A DNA stretch of 48,506 nt, taken from UHGV virus genome UHGV-0991693. The stretch is one strand, 5' to 3'. The DNA comes from a virus. Position numbers and translations under genes: made by a program. Below, in pieces: positions 20,099 through 37,724 of the stretch; positions within the stretch are counted from its first letter, which is position 1, and each line of letters opens with the position of its first letter. The notes beneath the pieces were generated by a model that ran no database searches, was not told where the DNA came from, and saw only the letters and a program-made list of their open reading frames with translations.

Positions 20099-20875
20099 AT
20101 GTATAAAAATCATGTTTTAAATAACACTATGAAATCTCTACTTGATTCTGCTCTGGCTGTGATTCAGGGCTACATTGAAAAAAATCACGATGGGAATGTG
20201 GCTTCAGCGGCTAGGTCGCTCGATGTTAGCGTTCCCACTCTTCACACTTGGCTGAAAGGCACTAGGATACCTAGTTTTAGTAAAATGGCTCCTTTATTAG
20301 AAAAAATAGGTGCATATATTGTCAGCCCTGATGAAAAAGACATATCTCGAGAAGTCTGTTTCGTTGATGCTAAGGTAGCCCCAGCCGGAGAAGACCTTCC
20401 CCCTCCCCCGGATGAAGATTATCTTGCTGTCCCTCTGGTCGAAGAGGTCGGGGCTGGACCCGGTATCATTCCACAAGGACAACTTATCTCATGGTTCCTT
20501 GTCTGGCGTCATCAACGAGCAATTCAACATAAACGCGACCTTATCGCCGTTATGCTCGGTAAGCACTCCACATCTATGGTTCCCACGCTCAAGCCACAAG
20601 ACATTGTGCTTGTAGACCGACAAGATAAAGACGTGATGAACTTCAAAGGTAGGATCATGCTTGTCCTCGATCCTTTCGACGGTAGCGGGAAAATCAAGCG
20701 TGTAGCGGCAGAAAACCAGCCGAAAAAGCGCGACTATCGCATCACCTACTATTCGGATAACGCCGCCGAGAATCCCCCCGAGGTCTACAGCCTTATGGAA
20801 GACTTCGATGGCGACTGGAACAAGTCCATCGTCGGGCGCGTCGTATGGGCGTGGAGTGACGTGAGCTGCAAATAG
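20099..20875 (+). CDS. cI: CI-like repressor: N-terminal HTH plus C-terminal S24 (LexA-like) autopeptidase domain
   Basis: HTH VASAARSLDVSVPTLHTWLKG. S24 motifs GKHSTSMVPTL (Ser) and KGRIMLV...SGKIKRV (Lys). Confidence 0.7.
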   Translation: MYKNHVLNNTMKSLLDSALAVIQGYIEKNHDGNVASAARSLDVSVPTLHTWLKGTRIPSFSKMAPLLEKIGAYIVSPDEKDISREVCFVDAKVAPAGEDLPPPPDEDYLAVPLVEEVGAGPGIIPQGQLISWFLVWRHQRAIQHKRDLIAVMLGKHSTSMVPTLKPQDIVLVDRQDKDVMNFKGRIMLVLDPFDGSGKIKRVAAENQPKKRDYRITYYSDNAAENPPEVYSLMEDFDGDWNKSIVGRVVWAWSDVSCK

Positions 20876-21039: not shown

Positions 21040-21120
21040 GCGGTTATTGTTTTATCTCGTATTTATGCTTTTGTAAATTTACACTGGACAAAGTATTCTA
21101 CATTTGTATATTATCTCTTC
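21040..21120 (+). promoter_or_regulatory. Candidate early-left promoter/operator region (PL-like)
   Basis: AT-rich island TTGTAAATTTACACTGGACAAAGTATTCTACATTTGTATATT containing ACAAA/TTTGT half-sites similar to those of the cI-cro region. Followed by a ~450-nt leader. Confidence 0.35.
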
Positions 21121-21576
21121 ACGACGAACGGGGAAGGCGAACACGGCGCGGCAACGGCCCGCCGAAAGCTGGAACCGGACGGAGGAAGCCCCAACAAGTA
21201 CGAGCTCGGCAAGCGCAAGCCTTTGGGAGCGGGAAGCACGCGACGGCAGGAAATGGGGTGATGTGAAGACAATCAGAGCGAAGAAGCCCCCCATTGAGGC
21301 GTTGTACCCGGAACTCCCGGCAAGGCGTCCAAACAAGGGCTGAGCATACACGGTTACGACACAAAGATCGGGCCGTGAAACGTGATGAAATACGAATTTT
21401 TACATCCGGGCGGTCAGTTGACTTTCTGACGATTCACCGCCCCGCATGAAAGGGAGCGCGAGAAATCGTACTCCCGAACCGTGCGATAATACATTCAGGC
21501 CGTGCGCTCCCATGCAGGGCTAAGCCCGGCTGGGCGCAGCGCAGTTTGGCAATCCAAAACAATGCAAGGAGTTTTT

Positions 21577-22167
21577 ATGTTTAACATCCATGTGACCATC
21601 GAGGGAACGACTCCCCTCCTCATGAACCGTTTCAGCGAAGAAAACGAGGTTAAGGTTTCCTCCGGGGTGTCCAAGGTTGCCGTAGGCACCAAGGGGACGC
21701 CGAGAGAACAGGCTGAAAAGAAGGCTTACAAGGATTCCAATGGGATGCTGTATATCCCCGGCCCAAACATCTTCGCTTGCATCATCCAAGCTGGGAAATA
21801 CCACAAGAACGGGAAATCCAAAGTCACAACGCTCAAAAGCAGCCTGATCCCTGCGGGTATGGCCCTGAGCGAAATCGTCTGTCCGCTCGGCACAAAGGAT
21901 TTTGAGGTGGACAGCCGCAGCGTGGTCATCCCCGCTACCGGGGGCCGCATCATGGCGCATCGCCCGCGCCTCGACGAATGGAGCCTGAGCTTCACCCTTG
22001 AAGTTGACGAGGACATGTTCTCAGCAGAGTTCGTCCGCCTTGTGGTTGACGACGCGGGCCGCAAGATCGGCCTGGGAGATTTCCGCCCCGACAGAAAGGG
22101 GCCATTCGGCAAGTTCGTCGTCACCGGATGGAAGGTCATCAAGGAAAAGTCGGGACGGGCTGCGTAG
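21577..22167 (+). CDS. Hypothetical protein, first gene of the early-left operon
   Basis: Start at MFNIHVTIEG with an AAGGAG RBS 6 nt upstream. 196 aa. No recognised family. Confidence 0.5.
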   Translation: MFNIHVTIEGTTPLLMNRFSEENEVKVSSGVSKVAVGTKGTPREQAEKKAYKDSNGMLYIPGPNIFACIIQAGKYHKNGKSKVTTLKSSLIPAGMALSEIVCPLGTKDFEVDSRSVVIPATGGRIMAHRPRLDEWSLSFTLEVDEDMFSAEFVRLVVDDAGRKIGLGDFRPDRKGPFGKFVVTGWKVIKEKSGRAA

Positions 22168-22233
22168 AGAAAATCTTCCTCAAGGAAAGGCTGGGCCGGG
22201 CACGGCGGGGCGGGGCGAGGCTTTGCTGGGCGA

Positions 22234-22256
22234 GGCTATGCATAGCAAGGCAAGGT
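22234..22256 (+). repeat. Direct repeat copy 1 (GGCTATGCATAGCAAGGCAAGGT) in a noncoding stretch
   Basis: 21/23 identical to the copy at 22398..22420. Followed by a perfect 10-bp stem hairpin at 22264..22286. Confidence 0.5.
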
Positions 22257-22397
22257 TACCAAAGGAGCCGGGACACTCCCGGCTCCGAACGGTATCCTTG
22301 AAATACCATGTGTCTCACACCGGGTATGGCAGTGCGGTGTGTGGCGCGGTACAGCACAGTGTTGTGTGGCTCAGTAACGCCATGCGCAGTTTGGTAG

Positions 22398-22420
22398 GGC
22401 TGTGCATAGCGAGGCAAGGT
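22398..22420 (+). repeat. Direct repeat copy 2 (GGCTGTGCATAGCGAGGCAAGGT)
   Basis: See copy 1. Followed by a terminator-like hairpin at 22473..22499. Confidence 0.5.
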
Positions 22421-22472
22421 GTGCGCGCCCCGGCGGGGATTGGCCCCGTCGGGTGCTTGCCTTGAATCATCG

Positions 22473-22499
22473 AAGCCCGGCGTAGTTCCGGGCTTTTTC
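22473..22499 (+). terminator. Intra-operon terminator-like hairpin (AAGCCCGG...CCGGGCTT + TTTTT)
   Basis: Stem-loop with T-run 45 nt upstream of the next ORF. Confidence 0.4.
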
Positions 22500-22546
22500 A
22501 TTGGTTCTGGGACTCCGGAACGAACTTTAACCAAGAGGATACAGCC

Positions 22547-22813
22547 ATGCGTAACCCCTACGAATATGAACCGGAAGATGAGCCCCACGTATGCGCAACC
22601 TGCGCCCGCTACTTCGAGAGCGACCAGCTGTGCAATATCTCTTCGGACATGGTGAAGGCCATCAAGGAACGGTTCGGCATCATGCTTGCCGATGCCGAGG
22701 TTGCCATCGACCCGAAGAAGATCACCGACTGCGAGGGATGGGTAAGCGCAGAACTTCACGACAGGTACGCGCTGTATCGGGACAAGTTGGAAAAGAGGAG
22801 GAACGCGGCATGA
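22547..22813 (+). CDS. Small hypothetical protein with a CxxC motif
   Basis: 88 aa. Acidic N-terminus. CATCARYFESDQLC. Confidence 0.4.
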   Translation: MRNPYEYEPEDEPHVCATCARYFESDQLCNISSDMVKAIKERFGIMLADAEVAIDPKKITDCEGWVSAELHDRYALYRDKLEKRRNAA

Positions 22814-36900: not shown

Positions 36901-37724
36901 GAAGCCCCTTCTTCCGCTTTTACAGATTCAGCAAACCGAGCCTGCGCAGCGGCGACAAGCGTCGCTATGTCCCGCCATTCTCCATCGCCACACAGCACGT
37001 AGGTGGCTTGCCCGGCGGCTGCGGGCGGAACAAGGCCGCTTGTCCCGGAGGTAGATGCCGTCGCGCCCTCATACTCGGGCACGGAGATAATGCACAGTCC
37101 GCCCGTACCATCAGCAAGGGCTTTTGAGCGCGATATCTTAATACCATCACCAATATAGTTTGTCTGAACGAGTTGTTGCCACGGCTGCCATGTGCCGTCG
37201 CGTATGCGTCGGCGCGACCATTCAGGCCCCGCCGTACCCATACGCGAGTAGATTTTCTGAACCGCCGCATTGGGGTTTGTAGCATCGCCGAACACACGAA
37301 GGACATAATATCCGTCCATCCCATTCATCGGCACATTGGTACAGTTTCCGGAGTAAACAATGTATGTGCCGGATGAGATAATATCGTTCAGATCGGTCCC
37401 TGCAGGAAGCTTGGTGCGATAGTCACCAATCTGCCCCCGCGCACTCGCAAGATCCTCAAGGTTCCCCCCAATCGCCACGTCTTTCACGGTGATCGCGCCG
37501 TCCGCGTCGGCCTGCGTGGTCTTCCCGTCGACAAGGTTTGATGCTTGGGCACGCTCAAGTGCATCGTTTGCCGAGTTCTGCGCAACTATCGCGGTAGACT
37601 GTGCTGCGTCTGCGGCTCCCTGCACTTGCTGAAAGAACCGTGTGGTTTGTCTCTCGAATTCGCTTCCGGAAAGCGGTCCTGTCGGCGGCTGGTACTGAAA
37701 ATCAGGCATAAAAACACCCTCCAT
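36897..37724 (-). CDS. Tail protein with a C-terminal receptor-binding knob domain (pyocin/tail-fiber knob-like)
   Basis: TDLNDIISSGTYIVYSGNCTNVPMNGMDGYYVLRVFGDATNPNAAVQKIYSRMGTAGPEWSRRRIRDGTWQPWQ follows the conserved D-L-N..G.Y....N.P...G.L.V......VQ.Y......R....G.W..W pattern. Confidence 0.5.
   Translation of the reverse strand: MEGVFMPDFQYQPPTGPLSGSEFERQTTRFFQQVQGAADAAQSTAIVAQNSANDALERAQASNLVDGKTTQADADGAITVKDVAIGGNLEDLASARGQIGDYRTKLPAGTDLNDIISSGTYIVYSGNCTNVPMNGMDGYYVLRVFGDATNPNAAVQKIYSRMGTAGPEWSRRRIRDGTWQPWQQLVQTNYIGDGIKISRSKALADGTGGLCIISVPEYEGATASTSGTSGLVPPAAAGQATYVLCGDGEWRDIATLVAAAQARFAESVKAEEGAS

What the first reader, a model, noticed from the sequence alone, without database searches (positions are those of the whole stretch)
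22168..22546. 380-nt noncoding interval inside the early-left operon with two 23-bp direct repeats each followed by a hairpin
No plausible ORF occupies 22168..22546. The interval contains GGCTATGCATAGCAAGGCAAGGT (22234) and GGCTGTGCATAGCGAGGCAAGGT (22398), which are 21/23 identical and 164 bp apart. The first is followed by a perfect 10-bp stem hairpin (22264..22286). The second is followed by a hairpin plus T-run (22473..22499). No N-like protein gene is evident after the PL-like region, so the interval could be a cis-acting RNA such as a put-like polymerase-modifying element or nut-like sites, or an sRNA.
Basis: seen in the sequence. Interest (0 to 1): 0.55.

Follow-up and report, generated by a model that had tools for sequence, protein, structure and literature searches.

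The report
Guide-RNA array of a phage VIPR system
The "noncoding gap with two repeats and hairpins" most likely encodes two small guide RNAs, made of 5-base repeats, that sit next to a Cas7-like phage protein (Vipr). VIPR is a CRISPR-related RNA-guided DNA-silencing system first described in 2026, so this is a new example of a known kind of system.

Summary
Two 23-nt direct repeats lie 164 nt apart (22234 and 22398). A 10-bp hairpin follows the first, a hairpin with a T-run follows the second, and no credible ORF occupies the interval.

The interpretation (put-like or nut-like element) is not supported. Each 23-mer is the 3' end of a long 5-nt-periodic tract, (N-G-Y-N-N)n. Tract D1 (22189-22258) has 14 units and tract D2 (22323-22422) has 20 units. 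A third tract, U (21498-21552), lies upstream of the adjacent gene.

That gene (21577-22167, 196 aa, PHROG 4652 "unknown function") is a homologue of the SUSP1 Vipr protein (PDB 36pp: E 6e-11; hhalign probability 98%). Its predicted fold matches Csm3/Cas7 RAMP proteins.

Vipr plus flanking GGY/NN pentamer-repeat RNAs with a structured 3' tail is the defining anatomy of VIPR systems (two bioRxiv preprints, April 2026). In 39 of 45 non-redundant related loci the vipr flanks carry the strongest period-5 signal. Guide tracts are swapped between near-identical relatives. The tracts end in a family-wide CAAGG motif followed by a hairpin, a hammerhead ribozyme or a tRNA.

RNA-guided DNA binding by the 1-nt-skip code, and silencing of competing phages, is inferred by homology only. 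I found no natural target.

Verdict: a new, unannotated member of a recently described kind, with some local peculiarities. No accessory vap gene is evident, the first repeat position is relaxed, and the tail is a stem-loop.

The parts
21085..21114 (+). Sigma-70-like promoter (TGGACA-16/18-TATATT/TATTAT) downstream of the CI-like repressor gene. It is a possible early ("PL-like") promoter that would read into the module. A perfect 12-bp palindrome, TGTAAATTTACA (21072-21083), abuts it just upstream of the -35 hexamer.
   Evidence: 10/12 match to consensus; the palindrome occurs only once in the window. Function is inferred.
21482..21490 (+). Putative extended -10 element, TGcGATAAT. It would place a transcription start at about 21497, the first base of tract U. 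This would be a candidate dedicated promoter for U and vipr.
   Evidence: Read from the sequence. The consensus scan did not detect it. In the relative L017 the swapped cassette carries GATAAG at the equivalent place. Inferred only.
21498..21552 (+). Upstream vrRNA tract U, 11 pentamer units: GGCCG TGCGC tccca TGCAG GGCTA AGCCC GGCTG GGCGC AGCGC AGTTT GGCAA. The last 8 units are uninterrupted.
   Evidence: The tract is entirely replaced in L017 although Vipr is 98% identical. Nearly all close relatives carry an upstream tract ending 8-33 nt before the vipr ATG.
21553..21576 (+). Conserved 3' extension of U: TCCAA AACAA TGCAAGGAG. The family-wide terminal CAAGG motif (GCAAGG, 21564-21569) overlaps the vipr Shine-Dalgarno sequence AAGGAG (21566-21571).
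   Evidence: The same ...GCAA-nCCAAGGAG-ATG arrangement occurs in L012, L026, L027, L034, L071, L094, L095 and others.
21577..22167 (+). vipr gene, 196 aa. It encodes a minimal RAMP (Cas7/Csm3-like) protein of the Vipr family.
   Evidence: Profile of 36 homologues against PDB 36pp_D "SUSP1 Vipr protein", E 5.9e-11. hhalign against SUSP1 Vipr: probability 98.1%, E 8.8e-14, 169 columns. AF2 model pLDDT 83.8. Foldseek top hits are Csm3 and type VII Cas7, E ~5e-7. PHROG 4652, "unknown function". No Pfam, NCBIfam or PADLOC hit.
22189..22258 (+). vrRNA D1 repeat tract, 14 uninterrupted units: GGCTG GGCCG GGCAC GGCGG GGCGG GGCGA GGCTT TGCTG GGCGA GGCTA TGCAT AGCAA GGCAA GGTTA. The NN dinucleotides that would form the guide are TG CG AC GG GG GA TT TG GA TA (AT AA AA TA).
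   Evidence: a run of 14, against a maximum of 11 in 300 Markov simulations. It has the strongest period-5 signal in the whole window.
22234..22256 (+). It is the last 4.5 pentamers of D1, including the family-wide GGCAAGG end.
22251..22300 (+). D1 3' tail, a three-tier stem-loop: CAAGG/CCUUG (22251-22255 / 22296-22300), UACC/GGUA (22257-22260 / 22291-22294), and a 10-bp inner hairpin (22264-22286).
   Evidence: Fold, z = -7.5. The same architecture is present in the Mailhella MAG locus L070. All 18 pairs are kept in 3 sequences, with 2 compensatory pairs.
22323..22422 (+). vrRNA D2 repeat tract, 20 in-phase N-G-Y-N-N units, 9 of which start with GG. A 1-nt deletion in L017 puts the first 5 units out of register, so the functional guide may be only the 3' ~15 units.
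22398..22420 (+). It is the last units of D2.
22415..22464 (+). D2 3' tail. The outer helix CAAGGUG/UGCCUUG encloses a G+C-rich hairpin (22425-22456). As in D1, the tail is followed by AA (CCUUGAA).
   Evidence: Fold. It is 100% conserved in L015 and L017.
22472..22499 (+). Intrinsic terminator: a 9-bp stem, a 7-nt loop and a U-run. It ends the vipr-vrRNA module.
   Evidence: In L015 and L017 the stem is kept while the loop is inverted or changed.

Best explanation
The interval is the downstream guide-RNA array of a VIPR (Viral Interference Programmable Repeat) system carried by a temperate phage, probably of Desulfovibrionaceae.

The module is: [promoter] - vrRNA U - vipr - vrRNA D1 - vrRNA D2 - terminator, all on the + strand.

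Proposed mechanism, taken from the SUSP1 and P. fulva systems:

1. The transcript yields RNAs of roughly 100-130 nt, each a run of N-G-Y-N-N pentamers followed by a structured 3' tail.
2. One Vipr protomer binds each pentamer. It flips out the G-G-Y bases and presents the two variable NN bases.
3. The resulting helical filament pairs the NN dinucleotides with double-stranded DNA that reads NN-x-NN-x (the 1-nt-skip rule, 3 DNA bases per 5 RNA bases).
4. An R-loop triplex forms and blocks transcription of the target, which is most likely a gene of a competing phage or prophage.

Its CAAGG pairs with a downstream CCUUG around a hairpin. [quoted passage not shown] The T-run hairpin terminates the module.

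**Shown here:** the homology and fold of Vipr; the pentamer tracts, their statistical significance and their orientation; conservation of this architecture across about 80 loci; hypervariability of guides between near-identical relatives; conservation of the tail structure.

**Inferred only:** expression and processing of the RNAs, formation of the ribonucleoprotein, DNA targeting, and the biological role.
For: **The protein is a Vipr.**
- The profile matches the solved SUSP1 Vipr structure at E 5.9e-11, and hhalign gives probability 98.1% over nearly the full length.
- The AF2 model matches Csm3/Cas7 RAMP proteins.
- SUSP1 residues that the structure paper reports as RNA- or DNA-contacting have conserved equivalents: R138->R129, D177->D168, R179->R170, K82->K74, K88->K80.

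**The tracts are real and in the expected places.**
- Only three uninterrupted in-phase NGY runs of >=7 units exist in the 48.5-kb window: U (8), D1 (14) and D2 (20). All three flank vipr. In 300 simulations the mean maximum was 5.6 and the largest 11.
- The period-5 power is the highest in the window.
- As a positive control, the same detector run on phage SUSP1 recovers exactly the published arrangement of 1 upstream and 3 downstream vrRNAs (paper read).

**The architecture is a family trait.**
- In 39 of 45 non-redundant IMG/VR loci, the vipr flanks have a stronger period-5 signal than any distal window.
- The same architecture is seen in nearly all of the 17 full-length GTDB loci (L080 has no tract) and in all 14 metagenome loci.

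**Guides are hypervariable while the handle is conserved.**
- Tract U is completely replaced in L017 although Vipr is 98% identical. The D1 changes fall in NN positions.
- Identical Vipr proteins carry different U guides (L095 against L096).
- The indel in L090 is 25 nt, exactly 5 units.

**The 3' end is conserved.**
- Tracts end in GCAAGG/CCAAGG across the family.
- The D1 tail fold is conserved in a Mailhella prophage, with 2 compensatory pairs.

**Published definition.** VIPR is defined as Vipr plus GGY/NN vrRNAs plus an invariable structured tail. Relaxed variants of the repeat (e.g. YNNNG) and hammerhead-interspersed arrays are described (bioRxiv 10.64898/2026.04.26.720920; 10.64898/2026.04.26.720927). 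Hammerhead-II ribozymes do follow tracts in the relatives L022, L024 and L051.
Against: - No natural target was found. No site in the window exceeds background under the skip-1 rule. No exact 10- or 11-unit match exists in IMG/VR, GTDB genomes or JGI metagenomes for the guide segments tried. An 8-unit U pattern gave only 3 hits, whose flanks match at chance level.
- The skip-1 rule showed no enrichment over skip 0, 2 or 3 in the roughly 0.5 Mb of DNA held locally. That test has almost no power.
- Identity to the experimentally studied Vipr proteins is only 27-30%.
The code could therefore differ.
- No vap accessory gene is conserved next to vipr.
- D2 has 20 units, more than the published 9-16.
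- There are no expression data for any of these RNAs.
Confidence: 0.86

Rival explanations
1. The tracts bind Vipr but are not DNA-targeting guides. They would act in cis as regulatory or decoy sites. For example, Vipr could polymerise on tract U and occlude its own Shine-Dalgarno sequence (autoregulation), and binding to D1/D2 could modulate termination or mRNA stability in the early operon.
For: The terminal CAAGG of tract U overlaps the vipr Shine-Dalgarno sequence, and this arrangement recurs across the clade. No target was found for any of the three guides. A terminator sits directly after D2, inside an operon.
Against: Guide tracts are swapped or hypervariable between near-identical relatives while the protein and the handle stay constant. 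That pattern is expected for programmable guides, not for cis-regulatory sites. The homologous SUSP1 and P. fulva systems are shown experimentally to target DNA. Autoregulation and guiding are not mutually exclusive.
Confidence: 0.07
2. The interval would be a put-like or nut-like cis-acting antitermination RNA that modifies RNA polymerase, so that the early-left operon reads through the terminator at 22472-22499.
For: The interval lies downstream of a PL-like promoter where lambda has N and nutL. A terminator lies before erf and ssb, and no antiterminator gene was identified.
Against: No Rfam family matches, even at E<=5. The repeats are in-phase parts of pentamer tracts that accompany vipr in about 80 loci, regardless of the neighbouring genes. 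The same tract type also lies upstream of vipr, and in lytic phages such as SUSP1. I saw no boxA/boxB or two-stem put anatomy when reading the sequence.
Confidence: 0.03
3. The 12-bp palindrome GCTATGCATAGC inside each 23-mer is a DNA operator for a dimeric helix-turn-helix protein (the repressor, a Cro-like protein or a partition protein).
For: Copy 1 is a perfect palindrome and copy 2 has one mismatch (I2).
Against: There are no further copies near either promoter. The PL-like promoter carries a different palindrome, TGTAAATTTACA. The palindrome is in register with the pentamers (GGCTA TGCAT AGC). It is absent from the homologous D1 end in the Mailhella relative L070, where the tail structure is nevertheless kept.
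Confidence: 0.02
4. The interval encodes protein-independent base-pairing sRNA(s), for example an immunity RNA of the P1 c4 / P4 CI type, ending at the terminator.
For: The + strand is highly structured and ends in an intrinsic terminator. C4-type antisense RNAs do occur near vipr in the relatives L022 and L051.
Against: No C4 or other Rfam match occurs in the window. The strict 5-nt periodicity, and its linkage to vipr across phyla, is not explained by a conventional antisense RNA.
Confidence: 0.02

Closest known systems
VIPR systems of Escherichia phage SUSP1 and the Pseudomonas fulva prophage (type II VIPR; bioRxiv 10.64898/2026.04.26.720920 and 10.64898/2026.04.26.720927)
   Same: - A minimal RAMP protein of about 195 aa, with a conserved G-loop (GDFRP here, GDWRP in SUSP1) and a conserved thumb arginine.
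- Guide RNAs made of GGY/NN pentamers, located both upstream and in an array downstream of the gene.
- A variable tract followed by a conserved, structured 3' tail.
- Carried by a phage.
- No self-target.
   Different: - Only 27-30% protein identity.
- No vap gene lies between vipr and the array, and none is conserved nearby.
- Repeat position 1 is relaxed (N-G-Y-N-N), and the G1-reading residue H17 is replaced by N17.
- The tail is a nested stem-loop that sequesters CAAGG, where SUSP1 is reported to have a pseudoknot. I did not test for a pseudoknot here.
- The upstream guide abuts the vipr Shine-Dalgarno sequence, leaving no ~110-nt gap as in SUSP1.
- The host is a temperate Desulfovibrionaceae-type phage, and the module occupies the lambda-N position.
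VIPR systems with hammerhead-ribozyme-interspersed vrRNA arrays (shown for types I and V in the same preprint, fig. S19 legend)
   Same: Closer relatives of this Vipr (72%, 69% and 49% identity: L022, L024, L051) carry Hammerhead_II ribozymes directly after their tracts. This clade therefore probably belongs with those types.
   Different: The window has no ribozyme. Stable stem-loops and an intrinsic terminator occupy that place. I could not assign the type because the preprint's classification tables are not held.
Class 1 CRISPR Cas7/Csm3 backbone on crRNA
   Same: The RAMP fold (Foldseek E ~5e-7). One protomer binds per RNA repeat unit, a thumb periodically disrupts pairing, and a 3'/5' handle is joined to a variable guide.
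   Different: The period is 5 nt with 2 pairing bases, against 6 nt with 5 pairing bases. The specificity is written inside a tandem repeat rather than in spacers between repeats. There is no CRISPR array, no cas1/cas2 and no other cas genes.
Lambda nutL/N and HK022 putL antitermination elements
   Same: Only the genomic position (just downstream of the early-left promoter) and the presence of hairpins in a transcribed leader.
   Different: There is no sequence or structure match. The element travels with vipr, not with early operons. It is not a member.
TRAP binding to 11 (G/U)AG repeats in the trp leader (from my own knowledge, not tested here)
   Same: An RNA with a roughly 5-nt periodic short motif, read by a homo-oligomer with one subunit per repeat.
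   Different: The protein fold is unrelated and forms a ring rather than a helical filament. TRAP acts in cis in attenuation and does not guide DNA recognition.

Membership tests
VIPR system | A Vipr protein: a minimal RAMP with an RRM core, a glycine-rich loop and a thumb, homologous to the characterised Vipr proteins | tested here: met
   PDB 36pp_D "SUSP1 Vipr protein", E 5.9e-11. hhalign probability 98.1%, E 8.8e-14, 169 aligned columns. AF2 model pLDDT 83.8, with top fold matches to Csm3 and type VII Cas7. The G-loop motif G-L-G-D-F-R-P, R129, K74 and K80 are conserved.
VIPR system | vrRNA loci: tandem pentamer repeats of GGY/NN (or the relaxed variants NNNGG, YNNNG, NNNNG), about 9-16 units, in the intergenic DNA flanking vipr and on the same strand | tested here: met
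   Tracts U (11 units), D1 (14) and D2 (20) are the only long in-phase NGY runs in the window, and they exceed 300 simulations. The same detector recovers the published SUSP1 vrRNAs. D2 is longer than the published range, and position 1 is G in only 9 of its 20 units.
VIPR system | GGY positions conserved and NN positions hypervariable among close relatives | tested here: met
   Tract U is fully replaced in L017 although Vipr is 98% identical. Among the substitutions in D1 and D2, 3 of 4 fall in NN positions. Identical Vipr proteins carry different U guides (L095/L096), and an indel of exactly 5 units occurs in L090. The numbers are small for D1 and D2 themselves.
VIPR system | An invariable, structured 3' tail after the repeat tract | tested here: met
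   Both downstream tracts end in the same 23-mer and in a CAAGG...CCUUGAA stem-loop. A CAAGG end is found family-wide. The D1 tail fold is kept in L070 with 2 compensatory pairs, 18/18 pairs; only 3 sequences were available. I did not test for the pseudoknot reported in the SUSP1 clade.
VIPR system | An associated vap accessory gene (typical but not universal: the preprint also lists stand-alone vipr genes) | tested here: not met
   The downstream 88-aa and 68-aa genes occur only in the nearest relative, L017. The neighbours of vipr differ from locus to locus. They have no PADLOC, Pfam or NCBIfam annotation suggesting a DNA-binding protein or a nuclease.
VIPR system | vrRNAs are expressed, processed to about 100 nt, and co-purify with Vipr | not testable with these tools
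   This needs small-RNA sequencing and a pull-down. Only a candidate promoter (21482-21490) and a terminator (22472-22499) can be read from the sequence.
VIPR system | DNA target recognition by the NN dinucleotides under the 1-nt-skip rule, with natural targets in competing mobile elements | tested here: inconclusive
   No self-target was found, as the preprint also reports for its systems. No exact 10- or 11-unit match was found in IMG/VR, GTDB or JGI metagenomes. Three 8-unit hits are at chance level. The tools allowed only exact patterns, not the preprint's criterion of >=80% NN matches.
Lambdoid nut / HK022 put antitermination RNA | boxA/boxB (nut) or two-stem put structure; acts in cis on RNA polymerase; associated with an N protein or with the polymerase beta' zinc-binding domain | tested here: not met
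   No Rfam match at gathering threshold or at E<=5. No N-like gene is present. The repeats are accounted for by the pentamer tracts. The functional criterion (read-through) cannot be tested here.
CRISPR array or solitary CRISPR repeat | Direct repeats of 24-40 nt separated by unique spacers of similar length | tested here: not met
   There are only two 23-nt copies, 164 nt apart. The sequence between them is itself 5-nt periodic.

The most novel reading that the evidence does not exclude
The most novel reading that the evidence does not exclude is that this Desulfovibrionaceae-phage clade is a mechanistically distinct VIPR variant. It would have four features.

- It has no vap gene.
- It uses a relaxed N-G-Y-N-N code, linked to the H17->N17 change in the G1 pocket.
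- Its 3' handle (CAAGG) is sequestered in a stem-loop, not in a pseudoknot or followed by a ribozyme.
- The handle of the upstream guide doubles as the vipr Shine-Dalgarno sequence, so that Vipr filament assembly on its own leader sets its own translation.

The whole module would then be a self-contained moron (promoter to terminator) inserted at the lambda-N position of the early operon.
Probability: 0.2. Interest if true: 0.55.

Novelty: new member of a known kind. Interest (0 to 1): 0.42.

Why it matters
VIPR was described only in April 2026 as an RNA-guided, noncontiguous-code DNA-silencing system, and was proposed to be ancestral to the CRISPR RAMP proteins.

This locus shows that the family is present, and unannotated, in temperate phages of gut sulfate-reducer-type bacteria. 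The protein is PHROG 4652 "unknown function" with no Pfam domain, and more than 2,000 protein clusters match it at E<=1e-3.

It also shows that the guide RNAs can be recognised from raw sequence, as 5-nt-periodic tracts ending in CAAGG plus a hairpin.

Comparison with relatives gives a compact view of how the 3' ends of vrRNAs are made in one clade: a stem-loop or terminator here, hammerhead ribozymes or tRNAs elsewhere. It also points to a possible autoregulatory coupling between the upstream guide and vipr translation.

For annotation, such "noncoding gaps with repeats" next to this gene family should be labelled as vrRNA arrays and not as nut or put sites.

Tried and rejected
1. **DNA similarity to known phages.** Neither the 3-kb region nor the interval matches INPHARED phages, in near or distant mode.
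2. **Known RNA families.** There are no Rfam hits (gathering threshold on the whole window; E<=5 on 21050-22650) and no tRNA or tmRNA genes.
3. **Coding potential.** Five ORFs overlap the interval; none has a Pfam or PHROG hit.
4. **Operator hypothesis for the palindrome GCTATGCATAGC.** Rejected: there are no copies at the promoters, it is not conserved in L070, and it is in phase with the pentamers.
5. **Other explanations for the 5-nt periodicity.** I considered a G-quadruplex or simple low-complexity sequence, and a TRAP-, CsrA- or Hfq-type sponge. I dropped these once the neighbouring gene proved to be a Vipr and the SUSP1 control reproduced the published vrRNAs.
6. **Search for a vap gene.** The window's neighbouring proteins were compared by tblastn with all loci held. 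The 88-aa and 68-aa proteins are found only in L017.
[quoted passage not shown] - All guides from relatives against the window and all loci. The best case was the L033 guide against window 37506, 20/24 matches over 12 units. Matches of that quality occur about equally often under the control skip rules, so I treat it as chance.
   - The window's guides against 0.55 Mb of fetched loci.
   - Exact-pattern scans: D1[units 1-10], D2[1-10], D2[7-16], U[1-11] and U[4-11] in IMG/VR; D1[1-10] in GTDB genomes; D2[7-16] and D1[1-10] in JGI metagenomes. Only U[4-11] gave hits (L067-L069). Their flanking units match at chance level. The L068 site lies in a coding frame with the skip base at codon position 1, not at the wobble position.
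8. **VIPR type assignment.** Not possible: the preprint's supplementary tables are not held.
Full report
**1.

The two 23-mers lie at 22234-22256 and 22398-22420. They are 21/23 identical and 164 nt apart. They are the only matches in the window at up to 3 mismatches, against none in 100 shuffles.

The perfect 10-bp hairpin (22264-22273 / 22277-22286) is real. So is the hairpin with a U-run at 22472-22499.

The mechanical ORFs that overlap the interval have no Pfam or PHROG match. The + strand folds far better than shuffled sequence (z = -6.3).

The genomic framing is also reasonable. On the + strand the order is: a CI-like repressor gene (20099-20875), a terminator, a sigma-70-like promoter (21085-21114), the region of interest, and then erf, ssb and a DUF1351 gene. 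An O-like replication gene lies on the other strand. The window has no DNA-level relative among deposited phages and contains no Rfam family or tRNA.

**2. What the repeats really are**

Written in fives, the sequence upstream of each 23-mer is strictly periodic.

- D1 reads GGCTG GGCCG GGCAC GGCGG GGCGG GGCGA GGCTT TGCTG GGCGA GGCTA TGCAT AGCAA GGCAA GGTTA (22189-22258, 14 units).
- D2 is 20 in-phase N-G-Y-N-N units (22323-22422).
- A third tract, U, of 11 units lies at 21498-21552.

The period-5 power of this region is the highest in the window. These are the only uninterrupted in-phase NGY runs of >=7 units on either strand, apart from the reverse complement of D1. In 300 first-order Markov simulations of the window the longest run averaged 5.6 and never exceeded 11.

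Each tract is closed in the same way. The terminal CAAGG pairs with a downstream CCUUG (followed by AA), enclosing a G+C-rich hairpin of different sequence.

- D1 tail: 22251-22300, z = -7.5.
- D2 tail: 22415-22464, followed by the terminator.

**3. The neighbouring gene gives the identity**

The three tracts flank one gene, 21577-22167 (196 aa). Its start is preceded by AAGGAG. PHROGs files it under family 4652, "unknown function". Pfam, NCBIfam and PADLOC have nothing.

The gene has more than 2,000 homologous clusters, all "hypothetical" and very conserved: about 70% identity from Desulfovibrio to Methylococcus to Phycisphaerae.

A profile of 36 homologues matches one solved structure, 36pp "SUSP1 Vipr protein", at E 5.9e-11. 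hhalign against the SUSP1 protein gives probability 98.1% over 169 columns. An AlphaFold model (pLDDT 83.8) matches Csm3 and type VII Cas7 backbone subunits (Foldseek E ~5e-7).

**4. What is known about Vipr**

[quoted passage not shown] A full-text search found no other papers on the subject. Their main points are these.

- The system consists of a minimal RAMP protein (Vipr) plus vrRNAs.
- vrRNAs are about 100 nt long. They consist of 9-16 GGY/NN pentamers followed by an invariable structured tail.
- They are encoded upstream of the gene and in arrays downstream of it.
- One Vipr protomer binds each pentamer and hides G-G-Y. The NN dinucleotides pair with double-stranded DNA, skipping every third base, and form an R-loop triplex that silences transcription.
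- The natural targets found were competing phages, satellites and prophages.
- Seven types are proposed. Relaxed repeat consensuses (NNNGG, YNNNG, NNNNG), staggered arrays and hammerhead-ribozyme-interspersed arrays all exist.

As a positive control, my tract detector run on the SUSP1 genome returns one tract upstream of vipr and three downstream of vap, exactly as published.

**5. The architecture is a family trait, not a local accident**

I fetched 53 IMG/VR loci with homologues of 41-99% identity, 18 GTDB genome loci and 14 metagenome loci with 77-85% identical proteins.

- In 39 of 45 non-redundant IMG/VR loci, the period-5 signal in the vipr flanks exceeds every distal window of the locus.
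- Nearly all of the 17 full-length GTDB loci and all of the metagenome loci show tracts immediately upstream and/or downstream of the gene, on its strand. L080 shows none, and the 18th GTDB locus, L087, holds only a gene fragment and was not examined.
- Over 103 tracts, position 1 is G in 53% of units. Positions 4 and 5 are mixed. The detector imposes G at position 2 and Y at position 3, so those two positions are not an independent result.
- Tracts end in ...GCAAGG or ...CCAAGG across the family.
- The element that follows varies: a hairpin or terminator in most loci, a Hammerhead_II ribozyme in L022, L024 and L051, or a tRNA, as in L098 where tRNA-Pro begins 7 nt after the tract. That variety is what one expects of interchangeable devices for forming RNA 3' ends.

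**6. Guides vary while the handle and the protein stay constant**

An alignment of the window with its two nearest relatives (Vipr 99% and 98% identical) shows the following.

- Tract U is replaced wholesale in L017, between conserved flanks.
- D1 differs by CG->TA in the NN of unit 2 and by one change at position 1.
- D2 differs by one N5 change and by a 1-nt deletion that de-phases its first five units.
- Both tails are identical except for inverted loops, and the terminator stem is kept while its loop changes.

Elsewhere, loci encoding an identical Vipr carry different upstream guides (L095 and L097 against L096), and L090 has a 25-nt (5-unit) duplication.

The D1 tail of a Mailhella MAG prophage (L070, Vipr 82% identical) folds into the same three-tier stem-loop. 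On the 3-sequence alignment all 18 pairs are maintained. Two show compensatory double changes (C-G->U-A and C-G->A-U) and three show G-C/G-U changes. When the 3' partners are slid by 1-3 columns, pairing falls to 31-56%. Three sequences are too few for statistics, but the result points the right way.

**7. Points of difference from the characterised systems**

- Identity to SUSP1 Vipr is only 27-30%.
- Residues reported to contact G2, Y3 and the DNA strands are conserved: R138->R129, D177->D168, R179->R170, K82->K74, K88->K80. The G1-reading H17 is N17 here and nearly invariant in the clade. That fits the relaxed first position of the repeat.
- No vap gene is conserved. The 88-aa and 68-aa genes after the array occur only in the nearest relative, and the neighbours differ from locus to locus.
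- The upstream tract ends only 25 nt before the ATG. Its terminal CAAGG overlaps the Shine-Dalgarno sequence, and this arrangement recurs across the clade. I suggest, without evidence, that this couples filament assembly to vipr translation.
- Hammerhead-bearing relatives suggest the clade belongs with the preprint's type I or type V. I could not assign the type because the supplementary tables are not held.
- The host is probably Desulfovibrionaceae. The nearest genomic relatives are Mailhella and Desulfovibrio MAGs.

**8. Targets**

Using the published rule (NN joined by one wildcard base, both strands), none of the three guides has a site in the window above the level of shuffled guides. 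The preprint likewise found no self-targeting.

Exact-pattern scans of IMG/VR, GTDB genomes and JGI metagenomes with 10-11-unit segments found nothing. An 8-unit segment of U gave three hits whose flanking units match at chance level.

Scans of the roughly 0.5 Mb of DNA held locally showed no enrichment of skip-1 matches over skip 0, 2 or 3. This is a limit of the tools, which require exact matches, and of the databases, not evidence against targeting. It does mean that the functional claim rests on homology alone.

**9. Rival explanations**

- **put/nut-like antitermination.** There is no anatomical or database support. It also cannot explain why the same tracts accompany vipr in unrelated genomic contexts and upstream of the gene.
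- **DNA operator (the 12-bp palindrome).** Rejected for three reasons: the palindrome is in phase with the pentamers, it is absent from the promoters, and it is not conserved in L070.
- **Conventional antisense or immunity sRNA.** This does not explain the periodicity.
- **Vipr-binding cis-regulatory tracts.** This is the only rival I keep at a non-trivial level. It is compatible with the overlap between tract U and the Shine-Dalgarno sequence. It is contradicted, as a sole function, by the cassette-like hypervariability of the guides.

**10. Verdict**

The finding is real and is best explained as the vrRNA array of a VIPR system, so it is a new and unannotated member of a kind described a few months earlier.

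It is of moderate interest. It is not surprising to someone who knows the preprints. It remains a clean example with clade-specific features that are cheap to test: no vap gene, an N-G-Y-N-N repeat with N17, a stem-loop tail, and a guide abutting the Shine-Dalgarno sequence.

How early transcription passes the terminator at 22472-22499 to reach erf and ssb remains unexplained.

Noticed in passing
L022 3656-3725 and 1095-1164; L024 3699-3766; L051 1264-1328: Hammerhead type II ribozymes (Rfam RF02276, 42-76 bits) lie directly after vrRNA tracts in relatives whose Vipr is 49-72% identical to the window's. The window has none at the equivalent place.
   Followed up: partly
L098 2341-2617; L061 2882-2956 and 3941-4167: tRNA genes abut VIPR modules. 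In L098, tRNA-Pro starts 7 nt after a vrRNA tract and is followed by tRNA-Ala and tRNA-Ser. In L061, tRNA-Thr lies just upstream of vipr and two tRNA-Leu genes follow the array. This suggests that RNase P or RNase Z could release the vrRNA ends.
   Followed up: partly
L051 220-304; L022 2684-2763: C4 antisense RNA (RF01695, the P1/P7 immunity RNA family; 60-67 bits) lies 240-330 nt upstream of vipr in two relatives. No such match occurs in the window.
   Followed up: no
L052 2506-2970 and 3581-3940; L066 3525-3849; L055 3601-3950; L054 3605-3884: These loci carry very long, nearly uninterrupted pentamer arrays of 56-93 units next to vipr, far beyond a single 9-16-unit vrRNA. They may be the "staggered/overlapping" arrays mentioned in the preprint.
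   Followed up: no
L008 (IMGVR_UViG_3300032164_003159), - strand, locus coordinates 1085-480 (gene) and 470-1 (array): A distant Vipr (30% identity over the G-loop region) is followed by at least 5 short tracts. Four of them end in GGCAAGG, and they are separated by AT-rich spacers that look like promoters (e.g. TTGACA...TATAAG). That suggests one promoter per vrRNA. This locus was found only because one tract happens to end in TGCATAGCTAGGCAAGG.
   Followed up: partly
window 21553-21576, and the equivalent positions in L012, L026, L027, L034, L071, L088, L094 and L095: The terminal CAAGG motif of the upstream tract coincides with the vipr Shine-Dalgarno sequence (GCAAGGAG-N5-ATG) throughout the clade. 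This hints at coupling between Vipr binding and vipr translation.
   Followed up: partly
window 22472-22499: A strong intrinsic terminator lies inside what looks like the early operon, 47 nt before the next gene (22547). No promoter is recognisable in between, and no antiterminator gene was identified. How erf and ssb are transcribed is unexplained. The vipr-vrRNA unit may be a self-contained moron.
   Followed up: no
window 21072-21083: A perfect 12-bp palindrome, TGTAAATTTACA, lies immediately upstream of the -35 hexamer of the PL-like promoter. It occurs only once in the window and is a candidate operator for the CI-like repressor.
   Followed up: partly
window 21115-21480: A stretch of about 370 nt between the PL-like promoter and tract U has no convincing gene. 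It contains only TTG/GTG-start ORFs of 51-88 aa, partly conserved in L015 and L017. Its role is unknown.
   Followed up: no
L091 2167-2215, 2301-2345 and 2413-2450: In this relative (Vipr 83% identical), four downstream vrRNAs are present. Three of them carry a different conserved tail, GGAAGCCUACCCGGAGGCUUUGUAUCCGGGG. Its two overlapping complementarities (AGCCU/AGGCU and CCCGG/CCGGG) could form an H-type pseudoknot, like the one reported for SUSP1.
   Followed up: no
window 37506-37541 (+), against the L033 tract at 2805: The first 12 units of an upstream guide from a relative match the window at 20/24 NN positions under the 1-nt-skip rule. Matches of that quality occur about equally often under the control skip rules, so I treat this as chance.
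   Followed up: yes
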